IMG/VR virus record: IMGVR_UViG_2645727555_000025
Span: 1-4,454 of that record
Source of the DNA: a virus
Taxonomy: Duplodnaviria; Heunggongvirae; Uroviricota; Caudoviricetes
Direction: 5' to 3' (one strand)
Length of the DNA stretch: 4,454 nucleotides
Positions within the stretch are counted from its first letter, which is position 1; each line of letters starts with the position of its first letter. The notes beneath the pieces are model-generated. The model was not told where the DNA came from. It made no database searches and saw nothing but the letters and a program-made list of their open reading frames with translations. Of this stretch, positions 1 through 4,416 are shown piece after piece. A program made the translations under genes and the position numbers.

Positions 1-39
1 TTGACGGACTTCAGGGGAAAAACGAGTATTTTTAGTCAT
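1..39 (-). CDS. IS3-family transposase OrfA, N-terminal 13 codons only (partial, runs off window)
   Basis: ATG at complement 39..37 preceded by AAGAGGT; translation MTKNTRFSPEVRQ... matches the remembered N-terminus of IS629-type OrfA. Confidence 0.65.
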   Translation of the reverse strand, partial: MTKNTRFSPEVRQ

Positions 40-68
40 CCTGTTTACCTCTTTCTCAGGAAGTTTAG

Positions 69-93
69 TCTCCAGGATTCCCGGGGCGGTTCA
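69..93 (-). repeat. Terminal inverted repeat (IRL) of the IS3-family element
   Basis: Reverse complement of 69-93 is TGAACCGCCCCGGGAATCCTGGAGA, a 25-bp end beginning with the 5'-TG typical of IS3-family termini. Confidence 0.65.
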
Positions 94-124
94 AGCAGGT
101 GATTTCAGCTCCGCTTTAAATGAG

Positions 125-706
125 TTGGAGTTAGCTCATGAGCCTATAAACGTAATTAAGGCTGAAAGTGTTGAATCTGCCGAAAACGAGCCAGAACAAT
201 TGGGATTTATTGAGGTTGAAGAGTGTGTTGAGGTTAATGATGAATTAAAAGTTCAACAGTCAAATGATAGCAATACAAATAAAAAAGCTCGTACTGCAAG
301 AGGTCCTCGTTTTACTTTAAGTGATAAAGATGATTTGTTTTTCAATAAAGCAGGCTTAGAAAAAGATATTTTCTTAGACGCTTACGAAAACGCGCCTGTC
401 AAAGCAAAGGATAAGATATTAAACCTTCTTAATTGGTTTAGCGGAGGTCCAGATATTAGTGTTTACACGGTAATTTCCATGAGACACCTTCTCACAGAAA
501 AGAAGGCTACAAGTAATAGTATTAAGATTGCTTTAATGAGCAATCCAGAAAAACCGTATCCGCTTAACACTGCGTCAACTCAGGCTGGGCAAATGATGGC
601 TGTATTTCCAGCTACAGGAATTGCTGTTAGAGACGGTGGAAATCTAACATTGAACGAAGAATCACCGATCGTTAAGAAGTTTGTCGCGGAGTACACTATT
701 GGATGA
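125..706 (+). CDS. Hypothetical protein (193 codons from TTG), acidic N-terminal segment; probably the 3' portion of a gene interrupted by the IS insertion
   Basis: Frame is open from nt 5 to stop at 704-706 with no ATG/GTG before 479 and no convincing SD at TTG 125; the IS end lies at nt 93, so the native 5' end is likely displaced. No recognisable motif. Confidence 0.45.
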   Translation: MELAHEPINVIKAESVESAENEPEQLGFIEVEECVEVNDELKVQQSNDSNTNKKARTARGPRFTLSDKDDLFFNKAGLEKDIFLDAYENAPVKAKDKILNLLNWFSGGPDISVYTVISMRHLLTEKKATSNSIKIALMSNPEKPYPLNTASTQAGQMMAVFPATGIAVRDGGNLTLNEESPIVKKFVAEYTIG

Positions 707-746
707 CGTTCCCCTACTGAAAATAAAGCCCATAGAGAGCTTTATA

Positions 747-776
747 GTGCTGGGTAAGCTAACCCATACCCAGCAC
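747..776. other. Stem-loop (10-bp stem GTGCTGGGTA / TACCCAGCAC, 10-nt loop)
   Basis: Perfect inverted repeat 747-756 versus 767-776, read directly. Confidence 0.4.
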
Positions 777-780
777 CACA

Positions 781-828
781 AAAACGCGCCAGAGAGCTTC
801 TTGTTCGCATTTCTGGCGCGTTTTATTT
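781..828. terminator. Bidirectional rho-independent terminator
   Basis: 13-bp perfect stem AAAACGCGCCAGA (781-793) / TCTGGCGCGTTTT (812-824) with GC-rich core, A-tract on the 5' side and TTTTATTT on the 3' side; lies between the ORF at 125-706 and the methyltransferase gene. Confidence 0.6.
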
Positions 829-857
829 GATTGCCATACATAAAATCAAATGCAAAA

Positions 858-877
858 ATAGGTAATCACTTACCTAT
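858..877. promoter_or_regulatory. Inverted repeat ATAGGTAA-TCAC-TTACCTAT just upstream of the methyltransferase start; candidate operator or translation-initiation hairpin
   Basis: 8-bp arms at 858-865 and 870-877, 4-bp spacer, ending 11 nt before ATG 889 and adjacent to the purine-rich RBS region. Confidence 0.3.
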
Positions 878-888
878 CGAGAAAGAAG

Positions 889-1482
889 ATGATTGCAGCC
901 GAAAAAATCAAACAGCGAAAGCGCGACAACTCTCTTCGTGACCTCTGGAGAACACCTGATTGGCTGTTTTCTGCCATTCAACGTTATCTTGGAGTGACAT
1001 TTGATGTTGACGTTGCCTGCAACAAGGACAATGCAAAGCTGCCTATTTTCATAGGCGTTGAGCGCGATGCTTTGAAATCTGAATGGGGGCAGCCAGGTAC
1101 AATTGCCTTCCTCAATCCACCCTACTCCAAAATCTCCCCCTGGATTGATGCGGCTATACGTGAGCAGGCTCGCGGAGTTACAACAGTGATGCTAATTCCT
1201 CAATCCCTCGATACAAAGTGGTATGAGCGTGCAACAGAGTATGCGAATGAGACGATTATTCTGTCTGGTGGCCGCGTTGCGTTTGTCGAGCCTGACGTCA
1301 ATTTGGGTCAGGTAGAAGTAAACATCAACCCCGGTGGCAGTATGCTCGTTGTTTTTCGAGGGTTTTGTCAGGACGCTGGGCACTCTATAAGCAAGATCCC
1401 TTTGGACGTCATGAAAAGTCTGGGAGGGTATGATCCTGCGAATGTGATCAGGAAAAAAAGACCATCAAAGAAGGCTGCTTAG
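889..1482 (+). CDS. Phage-type DNA N6-adenine methyltransferase (Dam family, Pfam PF05869-like), orphan
   Basis: 197 aa; N-terminal WRTPDWLF motif and NPPYS catalytic motif (the D/N-P-P-Y/F motif IV of amino-methyltransferases); purine-rich stretch before ATG 889. Confidence 0.85.
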   Translation: MIAAEKIKQRKRDNSLRDLWRTPDWLFSAIQRYLGVTFDVDVACNKDNAKLPIFIGVERDALKSEWGQPGTIAFLNPPYSKISPWIDAAIREQARGVTTVMLIPQSLDTKWYERATEYANETIILSGGRVAFVEPDVNLGQVEVNINPGGSMLVVFRGFCQDAGHSISKIPLDVMKSLGGYDPANVIRKKRPSKKAA

Positions 1483-1503
1483 TTTGCTCTGGCGTCTGTA
1501 ATT

Positions 1504-1562
1504 AGCCTGCTTCTGTATATATAAATAACTACATATTAATTATTAATATACGGAAGCAGGCT
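1504..1562. repeat. GC-clamped inverted repeat (12-bp arms) enclosing a 35-nt AT-rich palindromic core; candidate terminator or operator/promoter element
   Basis: AGCCTGCTTCTG (1504-1515) pairs with CGGAAGCAGGCT (1551-1562), one G-U equivalent. Core contains the perfect 17-bp palindrome ATATTAAT-T-ATTAATAT (1533-1549). Lies 22 bp after the methyltransferase stop. Confidence 0.45.
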
Positions 1563-1668
1563 GTTTTGTATCAGAGACTCCCAGACCTGAACATCACTAC
1601 AGAATCCACTAGACCCCCTTCCCAGACGCTTTAAAATCGATTTTATGAACCACTTTAAGGAAACCAAC

Positions 1669-1899
1669 ATGTCATACCCGACTAATGTCGTTGCGCTCGT
1701 AGAGAGCGATTTTCTGGCCCAGGCTCGTGAAATGATGAAAGATCGTGAGCAGGCTTTCAACTTGTACGAGTGGGCAATTAAGTGCTTGCATCTTGGCGAG
1801 CATCGCGAACTTGTTGAACAGCTTTTAGGTGAGTTGATCAATGAGGTGTTTGCCTTGAATGTTCAACTACATGGTCGAGAAAATAATCAATCACAATGA
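1669..1899 (+). CDS. Hypothetical small protein (76 aa)
   Basis: ATG 1669 preceded by AAGGA (1657-1661) at 7-nt spacing, preferred over the ORF-track ATG at 1645 which has no SD. Acidic, helix-like composition; no recognised family. Confidence 0.55.
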   Translation: MSYPTNVVALVESDFLAQAREMMKDREQAFNLYEWAIKCLHLGEHRELVEQLLGELINEVFALNVQLHGRENNQSQ

Positions 1900-2319
1900 T
1901 AGATAAGTACAAACTATTCATAAAGTGAATTGTAAGTGCTAAGATCTGATAGTTTCCAGTCGTAGACTGGAGGCTCGACCTGATGGGTGGGGGTAAGCGT
2001 CACTGGCGTCAGGTTTAAAAAAGCTCACTACCAGCGTAGAACCGGTGCCGTATAGGTGTCGGGGAAGGGGGAACCAAAGTGAGCAGAGACAAGGGTCACT
2101 TTATGATTGTCGAGTCTGGGGTGTTTCGAGAGGTTGAATCCAGTACTCCCCTTCATAAAGTGTGGGAAGATCTCGGTTCTGGGGTGCTGTCATCCATAAC
2201 TTCCCAAGTCTAAGCTGGCAGTAGACTTAGACCATAGCTTTTCAGGTTATGAAACGACCAGGTTGGTGAGGAATTTTATACTCACCTCCCTGGGAGAGTA
2301 TTACCTGAAAAGACAACCT

Positions 2320-2357
2320 CTCACTTCGTTCGAGGTGAACTTCACTCACTTCGTTCG
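2320..2357. repeat. Two perfect 13-bp direct repeats CTCACTTCGTTCG (2320-2332 and 2345-2357) flanking the small palindrome GTGAAC-TTCAC
   Basis: Read directly; about 125 bp upstream of the RNase H start codon. Confidence 0.6.
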
Positions 2358-2418
2358 TTCAGTTCAGGTTTATAAAAACCTGTTCTGGGAAGTAATTTGT
2401 TTATTTTAATAATTATTA

Positions 2419-2443
2419 ACACGCACGCGTGTGCGCACGCGCG
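2419..2443. promoter_or_regulatory. 25-nt perfectly alternating purine-pyrimidine tract (ACACGCACGCGTGTGCGCACGCGCG) with nested palindromes, in the RNase H promoter/5' UTR
   Basis: Strict Pu/Py alternation across 2419-2443; palindromes CACGCGTG (2424-2431) and GTGCGCAC (2431-2438); preceded by an AT-rich stretch (2393-2418) and followed by SD AGGAG (2471-2475). Confidence 0.5.
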
Positions 2444-2480
2444 AGGAAAAATCGGCGCGGCGCTTGATTCAGGAGTTTAT

Positions 2481-3071
2481 ATGACGACGAAGACACCAGC
2501 CCGATCGCAAGCAAAAACTCGCAAAAAAGACAAAAACAAAAATTCTCCCCGCACCAATCCCACAACGCCTGTCGTAGAGTTCAATCCCCAGCTTAAAACC
2601 GTGAAAATCTTTAGTGATGGCTCTTGCCTTAAAAATCCGGGTGGCCCGGGCGGTTACGGTATCGTTCTCCAGTATCGTGGTGAGGAACGCGAGTTCTCAG
2701 ATGGTTTTCATAGCACCACCAATAACCGCATGGAGATGATGGGGGCACTTATCGGGCTGGAGCGTTTGAAATATCCATGCAACGTTATTTTGCACTCTGA
2801 TAGCCAGTATCTGAAAAACGGCATGACACAGTGGATGAAATGGTGGAAACGCAATGGATGGATGACTTCTGACAAAAAACCGGTAAAGAATGTTGATCTG
2901 TGGAAGCGTCTGGATGAGGCCGCAAGTCGACATAATGTTCGCTGGAAGTGGGTTAAAGGTCACGCCGGGCATCGTGAAAATGAAATATGTGATCGACTCG
3001 CGAAGATCGCAGCTTTTTCAGCAGCAGATATGCCTCACAAGAAAGATATTGGTTTTGTTTATAACAAATAG
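2481..3071 (+). CDS. Ribonuclease HI homolog (RNase H type 1 fold) with a ~40-aa basic, low-complexity N-terminal extension
   Basis: 196 aa. From residue ~40 it aligns with E. coli RNase HI as I remember it: catalytic D (IFSDGSC), E (NNRMEMM), D (HSDSQY), H (KGHAGH), D (ICDRLA) and the GYG motif are all present. N-terminal 40 residues rich in K/R/T/P. Strong SD AGGAG 5 nt before ATG 2481, preferred over the ORF-track TTG at 2397. Confidence 0.85.
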
Positions 3072-3168
3072 TAAGTAAGTGTTTACCTATCATTTTAAAT
3101 CATGTATCTTATCGGCGTCAGGATGACAATGTGTCGGTAAGACACAGTTCCAGGATGGAACGAGAAAG

Positions 3169-3190
3169 GCGGCTGGCAATCGCCAGCCGC
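3169..3190 (+). terminator. GC-rich hairpin (9-bp stem, 4-nt loop), possible terminator/attenuator after the RNase H gene
   Basis: GCGGCTGGC-AATC-GCCAGCCGC followed by AACTCTTTCT, a weak U-tract. Confidence 0.4.
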
Positions 3191-3219
3191 AACTCTTTCT
3201 GACACTGGATGGAGTCCAC

Positions 3220-3714
3220 ATGGCACGTCAAACCTATTTCACTTCTGTAACTAAACGTCCTCGTTCTTTACGTCAAATTTTGGCCGAATTATTTAGCGGT
3301 CGTGTTATGTCACGTCTTGATGAACTAGAGACTACCGTTCGGTTGCTGAATGAACGTTTAGATAATCAAGCGTCAGTTGTTGCGAACGTGGGGGCGATTG
3401 TTGCCTCTGGTTCTTCACGCGAAGCGAAAAATGCACGGCCTTTAGTGAAGGAGAAAAACAACAAGGACAGTTCGAATGGAAAATTTTCAAAGAAAGAGGC
3501 TGAAACCAATGGCCTACGTTCTCATTATAGTTTCACTGGCGACGGTAGCCGTTCCAGCCGGTCAGAGCCTTTTGATGCCGGATTCATCCATCACCACACC
3601 TTCGTCGACGACAATTACCACCACTCCAGTGGAGCGTCCTGTCACTCTGGATGGGATGGCGGTGGATGCGATACCTCAAGTTCATCCAGTTACTCAGGAT
3701 CATGCTGTGACTAA
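3220..3714 (+). CDS. Hypothetical protein, predicted coiled-coil N-terminal half; C-terminal third is low-complexity (His/Ser/Cys/Gly) and may not be translated as drawn
   Basis: ATG 3220 with GGAG (3211-3214) at 5-nt spacing; first ~85 codons look like genuine coding sequence (amphipathic LDELETTVRLLNERLDN). From ~3480 the +1 frame looks more gene-like than this frame. Confidence 0.4.
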   Translation: MARQTYFTSVTKRPRSLRQILAELFSGRVMSRLDELETTVRLLNERLDNQASVVANVGAIVASGSSREAKNARPLVKEKNNKDSSNGKFSKKEAETNGLRSHYSFTGDGSRSSRSEPFDAGFIHHHTFVDDNYHHSSGASCHSGWDGGGCDTSSSSSYSGSCCD

Positions 3715-3727
3715 GGCGGTTGTATGA
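3476..3727 (+). CDS. Small secreted or membrane-anchored Thr/Pro-rich protein (83 aa) with N-terminal signal-peptide-like segment
   Basis: ATG 3476 preceded by AAGGA (3463-3467); basic n-region MENFQRKRLKP, hydrophobic h-region MAYVLIIVSLATVAV, then PAGQS and a T/S/P-rich region; codon choice looks typical for enterobacterial genes; stop TGA overlaps the next ATG. Confidence 0.5.
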   Translation: MENFQRKRLKPMAYVLIIVSLATVAVPAGQSLLMPDSSITTPSSTTITTTPVERPVTLDGMAVDAIPQVHPVTQDHAVTKAVV

Positions 3728-3912
3728 ACTGGTTTTCAAATCACTTTGGAAAAATTTGGCTGGCAATTCTTGCCCTCATGGCCGCCGGTTGGGTATCGAA
3801 CATTATAAAACTTGTTTGCTCTGGCGATCTCCAGTTTCAGGCTGGCATGACCTTGGCTCGTGTAGTTGGGATTTTTATTTTTCCAGTCGGTTCGGTACTT
3901 GGTTATTTCTGA
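3724..3912 (+). CDS. Small membrane protein (62 aa, two predicted transmembrane helices)
   Basis: ATG 3724 overlaps the upstream stop (ATGA), SD-like AAGGCGG upstream; hydrophobic segments IWLAILALMAAGWV and LARVVGIFIFPVGSVLGYF. Preferred over the W/C-rich ORF at 3720-3950 in another frame. Confidence 0.5.
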   Translation: MNWFSNHFGKIWLAILALMAAGWVSNIIKLVCSGDLQFQAGMTLARVVGIFIFPVGSVLGYF

Positions 3913-3944
3913 CGGTTGTTAGTGCATATGCATTGACCGTCTTT
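3911..3944 (+). terminator. Hairpin (GACGGT / ACCGTC stem around the palindrome TGCATATGCA) followed by CTTT; possible terminator
   Basis: Arms 3911-3916 and 3936-3941; inner palindrome 3923-3932; short T-run 3942-3944. Confidence 0.35.
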
Positions 3945-4005
3945 GCGTAAGCAATTTATTTAACTAGAAAACAACTTGTTTTGACAAATAACAAAAGGAA
4001 AACAC

Positions 4006-4416
4006 ATGTTAGGTTTCTTCAAAAAGAAAACTCGTAAAGCAGTTATCGAAGTCAAAAAAATGGAGAACCGTGATGCGGTTGAGGCCACCGTGTGGGGCGC
4101 GTACATGATCTCCTATGCCGACGGCACATGTGACGCAAAAGAAATTGCCATTCTTGAGAAGACAATTGCAGCTCTGCCTGCGTTTTCTCCGTTTGCTGGT
4201 GAAATTGCCCAAATGAGCGCCAATATCCGTGCTCGTTACGAAGCGTCCCCTCGTTCTGCTAATGCACAGGCTATTCGTGAGCTGTCTGATATTGCTGGTA
4301 CTCCAGAGGCGGTCGATGTTCTGTGTCTGTGCCTTGATATTGCCGATCAGGATGGCATTGGTCGAGTAGGCAGCCTGACGGCTGCGGCTTGTCATGGTCT
4401 GCAATTACCGTTATAA
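4006..4416 (+). CDS. TerB-fold (tellurite-resistance TerB-like) protein, 136 aa
   Basis: SD AAGGA (3995-3999) 6 nt before ATG 4006. N-terminus M-x-x-FF-K and two A-D-G-containing helical segments (YADGTCDAKEIAILEKTI; DIADQDGIGRVGSL) resemble the paired ADG motifs of TerB as I remember them. Confidence 0.7.
   Translation: MLGFFKKKTRKAVIEVKKMENRDAVEATVWGAYMISYADGTCDAKEIAILEKTIAALPAFSPFAGEIAQMSANIRARYEASPRSANAQAIRELSDIAGTPEAVDVLCLCLDIADQDGIGRVGSLTAAACHGLQLPL

What the first reader, a model, noticed from the sequence alone, without database searches (positions are those of the whole stretch)
1504..1562. GC-clamped inverted repeat enclosing a 35-nt AT-rich palindrome
12-bp GC-rich arms bracket a core that is itself a perfect 17-bp palindrome. 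As a terminator the loop is unusually long; as DNA it could extrude a cruciform or bind a dimeric protein. It may be both terminator for the methyltransferase and promoter/operator for the next gene.
Basis: seen in the sequence. Interest (0 to 1): 0.4.

Follow-up and report, generated by a model that had tools for sequence, protein, structure and literature searches.

The report
Repeated palindromic terminator of phage-plasmids
The hairpin behind the methyltransferase gene is one of three near-identical, AT-cored palindromes that SSU5-like phage-plasmids place at operon boundaries, where it most likely stops transcription: useful for annotating these elements, but an ordinary kind of signal in an unusual, repeated form.

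Summary
The inverted repeat is real: 17-nt arms (16 Watson-Crick pairs plus one T·G) at 1504-1520/1546-1562, and 0 of 300 shuffles reach that length. The "perfect 17-bp palindrome" (1533-1549) exists, but it is off-centre, overlaps the right arm and is not conserved.

The window is an SSU5-like phage-plasmid, 99.9% identical to pECOH89. The element starts 21 nt after the stop codon of a Dam-like methyltransferase and is followed by GTTTTGT on the sense strand only.

It is one of exactly three paralogous copies per genome. c1 is this one, c2 lies before terS, and c3 lies between the par operon and the helicase/primase genes. There is also one centre-deleted derivative.

A T-run follows c1 in 43/45 loci and c3 in 28/28 loci, but never c2. 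In the near-identical phage-plasmid Cyrano, published RNA-seq falls more than 100-fold across the gap that holds c3. In a sister lineage, ordinary hairpin-plus-T-run terminators replace the palindrome at the c1 and c3 sites.

Best reading: an intrinsic terminator. A separate conserved promoter-like block lies 50-75 nt downstream, not in the core.

Unexplained: the arms are conserved in sequence without covariation, and c2 and c4 have no T-run.

The parts
889..1482 (+). Dam-like phage N-6-adenine methyltransferase gene. Its transcription unit ends at the element.
   Evidence: ORF. Annotated as 'phage N-6-adenine-methyltransferase' in pECOH89 and its relatives. A promoter-like TTGCCA-17-AAAAAT with TG lies at 831-859.
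1488..1498 (+). Degenerate upstream half-site (TCTGG..GTCTG). It corresponds to the conserved GTCTGGGAG of the other copies and can pair with 1578-1587 in read-through RNA.
   Evidence: Alignment of c1 orthologues, consensus fold and fold of 1483-1585.
1504..1562 (+). GC-clamped, AT-cored near-palindrome (copy c1). Its 17-nt arms are 1504-1520 and 1546-1562. In RNA it forms an ~18-bp stem plus an AU-rich upper stem, with hairpin dG of -26 kcal/mol.
   Evidence: Covariance model R1 scores it 85 bits. It is conserved in 703 plasmid records.
1533..1549 (.). Perfect 8+1+8 palindrome ATATTAAT-T-ATTAATAT. It is off-centre, overlaps the right outer arm, and is specific to the E. coli lineage, so it is probably incidental.
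   Evidence: Read directly. Absent in SSU5 and Klebsiella orthologues.
1563..1571 (+). T-run (GTTTTGTAT) directly 3' of the stem, on the sense strand only. This is the U-tract of the proposed intrinsic terminator.
   Evidence: A T-run of at least 4 is retained in 43 of 45 c1 loci although the tail sequence differs between lineages. The minus strand has none (AATTACAGAC).
1578..1587 (+). CTCCCAGACC, invariant in all c1 lineages. It is the inverted partner of the upstream GTCTGGGAG and lies beyond the T-run, so in RNA it can pair only in read-through transcripts.
1610..1640 (+). Conserved promoter-like block for the next gene (TAGACC-16-TAAAAT). The core CCCAGACGCTnTAAAATCG is shared with copy c3.
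   Evidence: Promoter scan. The block is conserved in five lineages. The homologous block downstream of c3 scores as TTCCCA-17-TATGAT in a sister lineage. The motif CCAG[AT]CGCT occurs in intergenic DNA only at c1 and c3.
1669..1899 (+). Small gene (76 aa, phrog_5343, unknown function), the first gene after the cassette.
   Evidence: Annotated in pECOH89. PHROG match, no Pfam match.

Best explanation
The element is a factor-independent (intrinsic) transcription terminator that closes the methyltransferase transcription unit of an SSU5-like phage-plasmid. As RNA polymerase leaves the gene, the transcript folds into a long hairpin with a 10-12-bp GC-rich base and an AU-rich upper stem. This hairpin is followed directly by GUUUUGU, and the transcript is released there. 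About 50-75 nt further on, a separate conserved promoter-like block restarts transcription for the small gene at 1669.

The hairpin belongs to a family-specific cassette present three times per genome, always directly after a stop codon at a boundary between gene modules. c1 is this copy. c3 lies between the partition operon and the helicase/primase genes. c2 lies before the terminase genes and has no T-run.

Shown: the repeat itself, its three copies, the retention of the T-run, the drop in RNA level at c3, and the replacement by ordinary terminators in a sister lineage. Inferred: that c1 itself terminates, and that the downstream block is a promoter.
For: Position and polarity: the element starts 21 nt after the stop codon of a co-directional gene, and the T-run is on the sense strand only.

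Stability: RNA fold of -37 kcal/mol for 1483-1585, z -6.3. The hairpin alone is -26.2 kcal/mol.

Selection for the T-run: the tails differ in sequence between lineages (GTTTTGT, TTTTTAAG, TTTTAAAG, TTTTCC). A T-run of at least 4 is nevertheless kept in 43/45 c1 loci and 28/28 c3 loci, against 0/40 c2 loci.

In vivo data for a paralogue: Cyrano is 98% identical to the window. In its published RNA-seq, the par operon genes CYRAN_28-30 have log2(FPKM+5) of 5.2-6.7 in LB and 7.3-10.8 in the other four conditions (CYRAN_30, the gene next to the gap: 5.7-5.8 and 8.6-10.4). The next gene, CYRAN_31, has 2.3-4.2, where the floor is 2.32 (PMC9928086, S1 Table). The 193-nt gap between them contains c3 as its only strong hairpin with a T-run.

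Functional replacement: in K. oxytoca plasmid NZ_CP138770.1, the c1 site keeps only half of the palindrome, next to an ordinary hairpin with CTTTTGT (-18.2 kcal/mol, z -4.2). The c3 site has an ordinary hairpin with a T-run (-17.6 kcal/mol, z -6.9) next to a decayed relic that no longer folds (z -0.7).

A centre-deleted derivative with the same GC clamp (AGCCTGCTT...AAGCAGGCT followed by TTCTTTTAAAG) has the shape of an ordinary terminator behind the exonuclease gene.
Against: There are no transcript 3' ends for c1 itself, because the methyltransferase is silent in the lysogen.

The hairpin is atypical: 59 nt, only 0.44 kcal/mol per nt, and a tail score of 2.2-2.9. It fails a d'Aubenton-Carafa-type discriminant (d = -34 to -23, against +5.8 for the conventional terminator at 781-824), and the simple terminator scan does not list it.

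One c1 lineage (L051), all c2 copies and c4 have no T-run, yet they keep the palindrome.

The arms are conserved in primary sequence: 9 of 18 pairs never vary, and covariation is no better than in shuffles (132/500). There is no excess of sense-strand G·U over A·C mismatches (28 vs 23). A purely structural RNA signal would not need this conservation.

The RNA-seq evidence is per gene, not per nucleotide. It could also reflect Rho-dependent termination or rapid decay.
Confidence: 0.68

Rival explanations
1. A DNA-level site. The palindrome, possibly extruded as a cruciform from the supercoiled plasmid, is bound by a phage-plasmid-encoded or host dimeric protein. It would serve as an operator/silencer, a dispersed centromere or a lytic replication origin, and any terminator activity would be secondary.
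For: The arms CCTGCTTCYGTATA / TATACRGAAGCAGG are almost invariant across three paralogues and five or more lineages, while the flanks are unalignable. There is no significant covariation and no strand bias in wobble pairs.

Copies without a T-run (c2, c4) keep the palindrome. The core is inverted in some lineages, as expected for a symmetric site.

The copies are among the most AT-rich stretches of the replicon. The DNA hairpin has z -8.2. Conserved CTCCAG/CTGGAG half-sites flank the palindrome and the downstream promoter-like block.
Against: No candidate binding protein was identified. The neighbouring genes have no informative Pfam or PHROG match.

In the sister lineage the palindrome decays at two of the three sites and is replaced by ordinary terminators. 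That is not expected for an essential protein-binding site.

An iteron-like array elsewhere (SSU5 90.9-91.3 kb) and the RepA/RepB region are better candidates for an origin or centromere. From memory, the arms show no resemblance to parS, sopC or loxP beyond a short CTTC..GTATA stretch.
Confidence: 0.13
2. An RNA processing and stability element. The ~25-bp AU-rich helix would be an RNase III site. In read-through transcripts the helix is extended by pairing of GUCUGGGAG with CUCCCAGAC, and cleavage there would separate or destabilise cistrons, as in lambda sib/tI retroregulation. This could act instead of termination or on top of it.
For: The helix is long enough for RNase III. The outer complementary motifs are conserved, and the 3' one lies beyond the T-run, so the extended helix can form only after read-through. 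This reading would explain why c2 and c4 keep the hairpin without a T-run.
Against: There are no cleavage data. The outer pairing is conserved in sequence, not by covariation, and it is degenerate in the E. coli c1 copy and in c3. The ordinary terminators that replace the palindrome in the sister lineage are too short for RNase III.
Confidence: 0.1
3. A recombination 'linker', or a selfish palindromic repeat. The conserved 55-59-bp sequence would persist because it mediates module exchange or gene conversion between copies, as proposed for PeSL cassettes of T4-like phages, with no regulatory role of its own.
For: The left flank of c3 is a gene-replacement junction. pECOH89 has a DUF2971 gene there, and p504211_100 has an unrelated gene on the opposite strand, while the right flank is conserved.

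A fourth copy sits beside an inserted toxin-antitoxin module in E. albertii. One c3 variant carries exactly the c2 core. Cores are inverted in some lineages.
Against: This does not explain why the T-run is kept at c1 and c3 but not at c2. It also does not explain the placement directly after stop codons, or the replacement by ordinary terminators. No target-site duplications or transposon-like ends were seen.
Confidence: 0.06
4. A promoter or operator within the AT-rich core for the downstream gene, or a packaging (cos/pac) signal related to copy c2.
For: The core contains TATAAATA-like and -10-like strings. One minus-strand sigma-70-like match overlaps it. The linear SSU5 record begins and ends in the apex of copy c2.
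Against: The promoter-like count is not above the shuffles, and the matching -35 lies in non-conserved sequence. The core orientation flips between lineages. The conserved promoter-like block lies outside the element.

Three cos sites per genome would cut the genome. The break in the SSU5 record at a palindrome apex is what an assembly break would give. The Cyrano record appears to copy that start, and no termini were determined.
Confidence: 0.03

Closest known systems
Intrinsic (Rho-independent) terminators of bacteria and phages
   Same: A GC-rich stem base, a U-run directly 3' on the sense strand, and placement just after a stop codon. The same position carries an ordinary terminator in a sister lineage.
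   Different: The hairpin is 59 nt with a long AU-rich upper stem. It scores below classical thresholds. Its sequence, not only its structure, is conserved, and it is repeated three times per genome. One paralogue has no U-run.
PeSL (promoter-early stem-loop) composite terminator/promoter cassettes of T4-like phages (PMC2839356, PMC4122927)
   Same: A small stem-loop terminator with an adjacent promoter-like block, repeated with high sequence conservation within a genome. It is found at junctions of gene replacement or insertion (c3, c4).
   Different: The phage family is unrelated and the sequence is unrelated. There are only 3-4 copies per genome. The stem-loop is a long AT-cored palindrome, and the promoter block lies 50-95 nt away. 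Recombination at the cassettes is inferred from two junctions only.
Lambda tI/sib retroregulator (established knowledge, cited from memory)
   Same: A terminator hairpin whose helix can be extended by sequence lying beyond the U-run, so the longer helix exists only in read-through RNA.
   Different: There is no evidence of RNase III cleavage. The outer pairing is short (7-9 bp) and separated from the main helix by internal loops of 12-26 nt.
Dispersed palindromic centromere sites of phage-plasmid N15 (sopC-like inverted repeats; cited from memory)
   Same: Several copies of one palindrome scattered over a phage-plasmid genome next to phage promoters.
   Different: There is no sequence resemblance and no cognate binding protein identified. 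The copies here carry T-runs and are replaceable by ordinary terminators.

Membership tests
Intrinsic (Rho-independent) terminator | Stable RNA hairpin with a GC-rich stem on the transcribed (sense) strand | tested here: met
   Hairpin dG -26.2 kcal/mol. Ten of the twelve basal pairs are Watson-Crick with 7 G-C. z -6.3.
Intrinsic (Rho-independent) terminator | U-run immediately 3' of the stem | tested here: met
   GTTTTGTAT at 1563-1571. A T-run of at least 4 is present in 43/45 c1 loci and 28/28 c3 loci. None on the minus strand.
Intrinsic (Rho-independent) terminator | Compact hairpin and score above classical thresholds (short loop, high dG per nt, strong tail) | tested here: not met
   Not listed by the loop-3-8 scan. 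The d'Aubenton-Carafa-type discriminant is -34 to -23, against +5.8 for the terminator at 781-824. Modern energy parameters were used with the old formula, so the threshold is only indicative.
Intrinsic (Rho-independent) terminator | Transcript 3' ends, or loss of read-through, at the site in vivo | tested here: inconclusive
   c1: the upstream gene is silent in the available RNA-seq. Paralogue c3: a >100-fold drop between adjacent genes across the gap that contains it, from per-gene values only.
PeSL-like composite terminator/promoter cassette | Stem-loop terminator coupled to a promoter in one conserved intergenic unit | tested here: inconclusive
   The hairpin plus the conserved block CCAG[AT]CGCTnTAnnAT is shared by c1 and c3 only. 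The promoter is predicted, not shown.
PeSL-like composite terminator/promoter cassette | Several sequence-conserved copies within one genome | tested here: met
   Three full copies in pECOH89 and in SSU5, plus one derivative. 110 complete copies in IMG/VR loci, all in these contexts.
PeSL-like composite terminator/promoter cassette | Copies lie at boundaries of indels or gene replacements | tested here: inconclusive
   True for c3 (gene replacement on its left flank) and for c4 (inserted TA module). Not true for c1 or c2, whose flanks are syntenic in all relatives examined.
Lambda sib/tI-type retroregulator | Extra pairing between sequence 5' of the hairpin and sequence 3' of the U-run | tested here: met
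   UCUGGGA / UCCCAGA appears in the consensus fold of 8 copies, conserved without covariation.
Lambda sib/tI-type retroregulator | RNase III cleavage of the read-through form | not testable with these tools
   Needs rnc+/rnc- transcript mapping.
Centromere-like or operator palindrome (parS/sopC type) | Cognate DNA-binding protein and specific binding | not testable with these tools
   No candidate emerged from Pfam or PHROG scans of neighbouring genes.
MITE / REP-type mobile repeat | Terminal inverted repeats with target-site duplication, and presence/absence polymorphism at many sites | tested here: not met
   No duplications were seen next to the outer GTCTGGGAG/CTCCCAGAC motifs. The positions are fixed at three syntenic sites, with one extra site in one plasmid.
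Any curated RNA family (Rfam 15) | Match to a covariance model | tested here: not met
   No match at 1504-1562 even at E<=1.

The most novel reading that the evidence does not exclude
Beyond terminating, the palindrome would be a sequence-specific recognition site shared by three operon boundaries: partition | lytic replication, methyltransferase | small-gene/rnhA unit, and ParB-like operon | packaging genes. A phage-plasmid-encoded factor would read it, as RNA (conditional antitermination, or RNase III retroregulation of read-through transcripts) or as DNA (cruciform or dimer binding). That factor would switch all three boundaries together when the element passes from plasmid maintenance to lytic growth.

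This reading would account for the invariant arms without covariation, the conserved flanking GTCTGGGAG/CTCCCAGAC motifs, and the copies without a T-run.
Probability: 0.2. Interest if true: 0.6.

Novelty: new member of a known kind. Interest (0 to 1): 0.3.

Why it matters
SSU5-like phage-plasmids are common in clinical Enterobacteriaceae: the c1 locus alone matches 703 plasmid records, and some carry resistance genes such as CTX-M-15. Almost nothing is known about how they keep lytic genes silent while plasmid-maintenance genes are expressed.

The cassette marks three operon boundaries. At one of them (c3), expression drops more than 100-fold between the partition operon and the lytic replication genes. 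It is therefore a ready landmark for annotating transcription units, and a candidate insulator whose removal should derepress lytic functions. It is also a possible hot spot for module exchange.

As a mechanism it is ordinary. Only the sequence-level conservation and the copies without a T-run hint at something more.

Tried and rejected
Promoter in the core: a sigma-70 scan found nothing conserved, and the core is inverted in some lineages.

Rfam: no family at the element.

Covariation test for an RNA structure: not significant, because the pairs are simply invariant. Strand bias of wobble pairs: none.

cos/pac idea: it was raised because the linear SSU5 and Cyrano records start in the apex of c2. 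No termini were determined in the Cyrano paper or in the phage-plasmid induction paper. TerL is of the Terminase_6N/Terminase_3 type. Three copies would cut the genome, and an assembly break at a palindrome explains the record ends.

Lytic origin: cumulative GC skew follows gene orientation only, and an iteron-like array lies elsewhere.

Co-evolution with a trans factor: Klebsiella c1 and c3 share the change TTCYG>TTTCG on their arms, but Klebsiella c2 does not.

Genome-wide enrichment of CCCAGAC: none outside the cassettes.

Distant relative Pseudomonas phage nickie: the ParB-like...terS synteny is conserved, and a small hairpin with a T-run sits before terS, but there is no palindrome.

Neighbouring proteins: no informative Pfam or PHROG families.

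Literature: four full-text searches found nothing on this element.

LexA-box, loxP, SlmA and Fur resemblances: considered by eye from remembered consensus sequences and judged too weak. These were not tool tests.

Full report
WHAT THE WINDOW IS. Bases 93-4362 are 99.9% identical to the 111.7-kb E. coli plasmid pECOH89. They are 98% identical to phage-plasmid Cyrano (pLF82) and 77-78% identical to Salmonella phage SSU5 and to Klebsiella phage-plasmids. The genes all lie on the + strand. In order they are: a hypothetical gene, a Dam-like N6-adenine methyltransferase (889-1482), a 76-aa gene (1669-1899), a 580-nt gap, rnhA, two small genes and a TerB-like gene.

THE OBSERVATION. The inverted repeat has 17-nt arms, 1504-1520 and 1546-1562, with 16 Watson-Crick pairs plus one T·G and 25 nt between the arms. 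No dinucleotide-preserving shuffle of the window gave arms longer than 15 nt (0/300). Folding z-scores are -6.3 and -6.4 for RNA on the two strands and -8.2 for DNA. The perfect 17-nt palindrome at 1533-1549 is real, but it is off-centre, overlaps the right outer arm, and is missing from the SSU5 and Klebsiella orthologues. No Rfam family matches the element.

IT IS A REPEATED CASSETTE. A search of the complete pECOH89 and SSU5 sequences found three paralogous copies per genome. A covariance model built from 34 distinct copies confirmed exactly three full copies in each genome.
- c1 is the finding itself.
- c2 lies between an 88-aa gene and the small terminase subunit gene.
- c3 lies between the partition operon and the gene that precedes the DnaB-like helicase and primase.

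The consensus is CCTGCTTCYGTATATATAAATAmTAAGT-n-ACTTATTAAATATATACRGAAGCAGG. A pattern scan of IMG/VR gave 123 hits. Of these, 110 have the partner arm, and all of those sit in the c1, c2 or c3 context. The 13 hits without a partner arm are chance matches. A fourth copy (c4) lies next to an inserted RelE/ParE module in an E. albertii plasmid. The E. coli lineage also has a centre-deleted derivative with the same GC clamp behind the exonuclease gene, and it has the shape of an ordinary terminator.

EVIDENCE THAT c1 AND c3 TERMINATE TRANSCRIPTION.
(i) Each copy begins within about 0-25 nt of a stop codon of a co-directional gene.
(ii) The sequence after the stem differs between lineages, yet a T-run of at least 4 is kept in 43/45 c1 loci and 28/28 c3 loci, and is absent from 0/40... 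that is, present in none of the 40 c2 loci. The minus strand of c1 has no T-run.
(iii) The published per-gene RNA-seq of the Cyrano lysogen (PMC9928086, S1 Table) gives the par operon genes CYRAN_28-30 log2(FPKM+5) values of 5.2-6.7 in LB and 7.3-10.8 in the other four conditions; CYRAN_30, the gene next to the gap, has 5.7-5.8 and 8.6-10.4. The next gene, CYRAN_31, has 2.3-4.2, with the floor at 2.32. The 193-nt gap between them contains c3 (Cyrano 31157-31213) as its only strong hairpin with a T-run.
(iv) A sister lineage, K. oxytoca plasmid NZ_CP138770.1, has a c3-neighbour gene only 52% identical in protein. At its c3 site an ordinary hairpin with a T-run (-17.6 kcal/mol, z -6.9) sits beside a relic of the palindrome that no longer folds (z -0.7). 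At its c1 site only the right half of the palindrome remains, next to another ordinary hairpin followed by CTTTTGT (-18.2 kcal/mol, z -4.2).

Replacement by unrelated terminators at the same positions is the strongest argument that termination is the selected function there.

For c1 itself the RNA-seq says nothing, because the methyltransferase gene is at background level in the lysogen.

THE DOWNSTREAM PROMOTER-LIKE BLOCK. An alignment of five c1 lineages shows that the non-coding DNA is conserved in blocks:
- TCTGGG(AG) upstream;
- the palindrome;
- CTCCCAGACC (1578-1587);
- CTGGA..CCCC..TCCAGACGCTnTAGAATCG (1610-1640).

The T-run region between the palindrome and CTCCCAGACC is unalignable. 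The last block contains the sigma-70-like match TAGACC-16-TAAAAT found by the scan, about 30 nt before the ATG of the next gene. The same block follows c3, and in the sister lineage it scores as TTCCCA-17-TATGAT. CCAG[AT]CGCT occurs in intergenic DNA only at c1 and c3. So the 'terminator plus promoter' idea holds for the locus, but the promoter-like part is not in the AT-rich core.

WHAT TERMINATION DOES NOT EXPLAIN. The arms are conserved as sequence. Nine of 18 pairs never vary, covariation is no better than in shuffles (132/500), and 92.5% of cells are paired. Sense-strand G·U pairs (28) are not favoured over A·C (23). The c2 and c4 copies, and one c1 lineage, lack a T-run but keep the palindrome. 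The core is inverted relative to its flanks in pECOH89/Cyrano c3, in L092 c3 and in L051 c1. The outer motifs GTCTGGGAG and CTCCCAGAC can pair only in read-through RNA. By classical scoring the hairpin is a weak terminator.

These points leave room for three additions to the terminator reading. The first is a sequence-specific reader of the hairpin or duplex. The second is RNase III processing of read-through RNA, as at lambda sib/tI (cited from memory). The third is a role as a recombination linker like the PeSL cassettes of T4-like phages (PMC4122927). The third fits two observations: the gene replacement on the left flank of c3, and a c3 variant that carries exactly the c2 core.

REJECTED READINGS.
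- A packaging site was considered because the linear SSU5 and Cyrano records open in the apex of c2. No termini were determined, three such sites would fragment the genome, and an assembly break at a palindrome explains the coordinates.
- GC skew gives no origin signal, and an iteron-like array lies elsewhere.
- The Klebsiella arm variant TTTCG is shared by c1 and c3 but not by c2, so co-evolution with a trans factor is not shown.
- Pseudomonas phage nickie shares the ParB-like...terS synteny but has no palindrome.
- Full-text searches found no description of the element.

VERDICT. This is an intrinsic terminator in an unusual, family-specific palindromic form. It is one of three copies that punctuate the genome of SSU5-like phage-plasmids, and a separate promoter-like block follows it. 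The mechanism is ordinary, and the repeated, sequence-conserved design is a modest curiosity worth a term-seq experiment.

Noticed in passing
window 1-92: These bases do not belong to the phage-plasmid. They match thousands of places in E. coli genomes (5935 records) and Stx phages at 100% identity. The minus strand starts an ORF MTKNTRFSPEVRQ, which from memory looks like the left end and orfA start of an IS3-family element (IS629/IS1203-like). The insertion truncates the 270-aa hypothetical gene that is intact in pECOH89 (L001 11805-12614).
   Followed up: partly
window ~1900-2480 (notably 2079-2213): This 580-nt gap between the small gene and rnhA has no convincing ORF. In Cyrano the 135-nt 'CYRAN_81' annotated there is about 12x above background in the lysogen (117 against ~10 normalised counts) and reaches log2 10.3 in macrophages, while both neighbouring genes are silent. 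It is probably an independently transcribed small RNA or micro-gene expressed during lysogeny.
   Followed up: partly
window 741-824: Two tandem hairpins follow the first gene: 744-779, and AAAACGCGCCAGA...TCTGGCGCGTTTT at 781-824. The second is a conventional, apparently bidirectional terminator and the only one in the window that passes the classical discriminant. A promoter-like TTGCCA-17-AAAAAT follows at 831-859 for the methyltransferase gene.
   Followed up: partly
window 854-878 and 3067-3091; also downstream of c3 (Cyrano L135 ~2297-2320): A second recurring intergenic motif, TAAGTAAGTnnnTACCTAYC; at 858-876 it forms the hairpin ATAGGTAA-TCAC-TTACCTAT. In SSU5, TACCTAYC occurs 5 times in intergenic DNA and never in coding DNA. 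Function unknown; it could be a leader or RBS-proximal signal.
   Followed up: partly
window 2397-2445: An AT-rich run (TTTATTTTAATAATTATTAA) that is 88% complementary to part of the c1 core. It is followed by an alternating purine-pyrimidine near-palindrome, ACGCACGCGTGTGCGCACGCGCG, just upstream of rnhA. There is a weak, sub-threshold Rfam hit only.
   Followed up: no
window 3116-3190: Two CAGGATG-containing hairpins (a weak CsrB-like Rfam hit, far below threshold) and a GC-rich hairpin GCGGCTGGCAATCGCCAGCCGC, all ahead of the gene at 3220.
   Followed up: no
SSU5 (JQ965645) 90.9-91.3 kb; pECOH89 reverse-complement ~34.0-34.3 kb: An array of iteron-like repeats, GCCATTACyCmATACACGGAGAAGAAC, spaced about 100 bp apart in a long non-coding stretch. 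It is a candidate origin or centromere of the phage-plasmid.
   Followed up: no
SSU5 record ends (103261-103299 | 1-18); Cyrano record start: The linear GenBank records of SSU5 and Cyrano are opened exactly in the apex of palindrome copy c2. This is probably an assembly break at a hairpin, copied by the later record, rather than a physical genome end.
   Followed up: partly
L001 11645-11691 (pECOH89) and L133 1797-1843 (Cyrano), just upstream of the window's first gene: A centre-deleted derivative of the palindrome: AAAACAAAAGCCTGCTT-TAAAGAGAGTTTG-AAGCAGGCTTTCTTTTAAAG. It has the same GC clamp and now the shape of an ordinary bidirectional terminator. SSU5 and Klebsiella carry unrelated hairpins at this site.
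   Followed up: yes
L134 5159-5224 (Pseudomonas phage nickie): A perfect 13-bp inverted repeat with a 40-nt spacer (ACCCAGTTGGTCG...CGACCAACTGGGT) inside the ABC-ATPase gene of the ParB-like module. About 0.01 such repeats are expected by chance in 15 kb.
   Followed up: no
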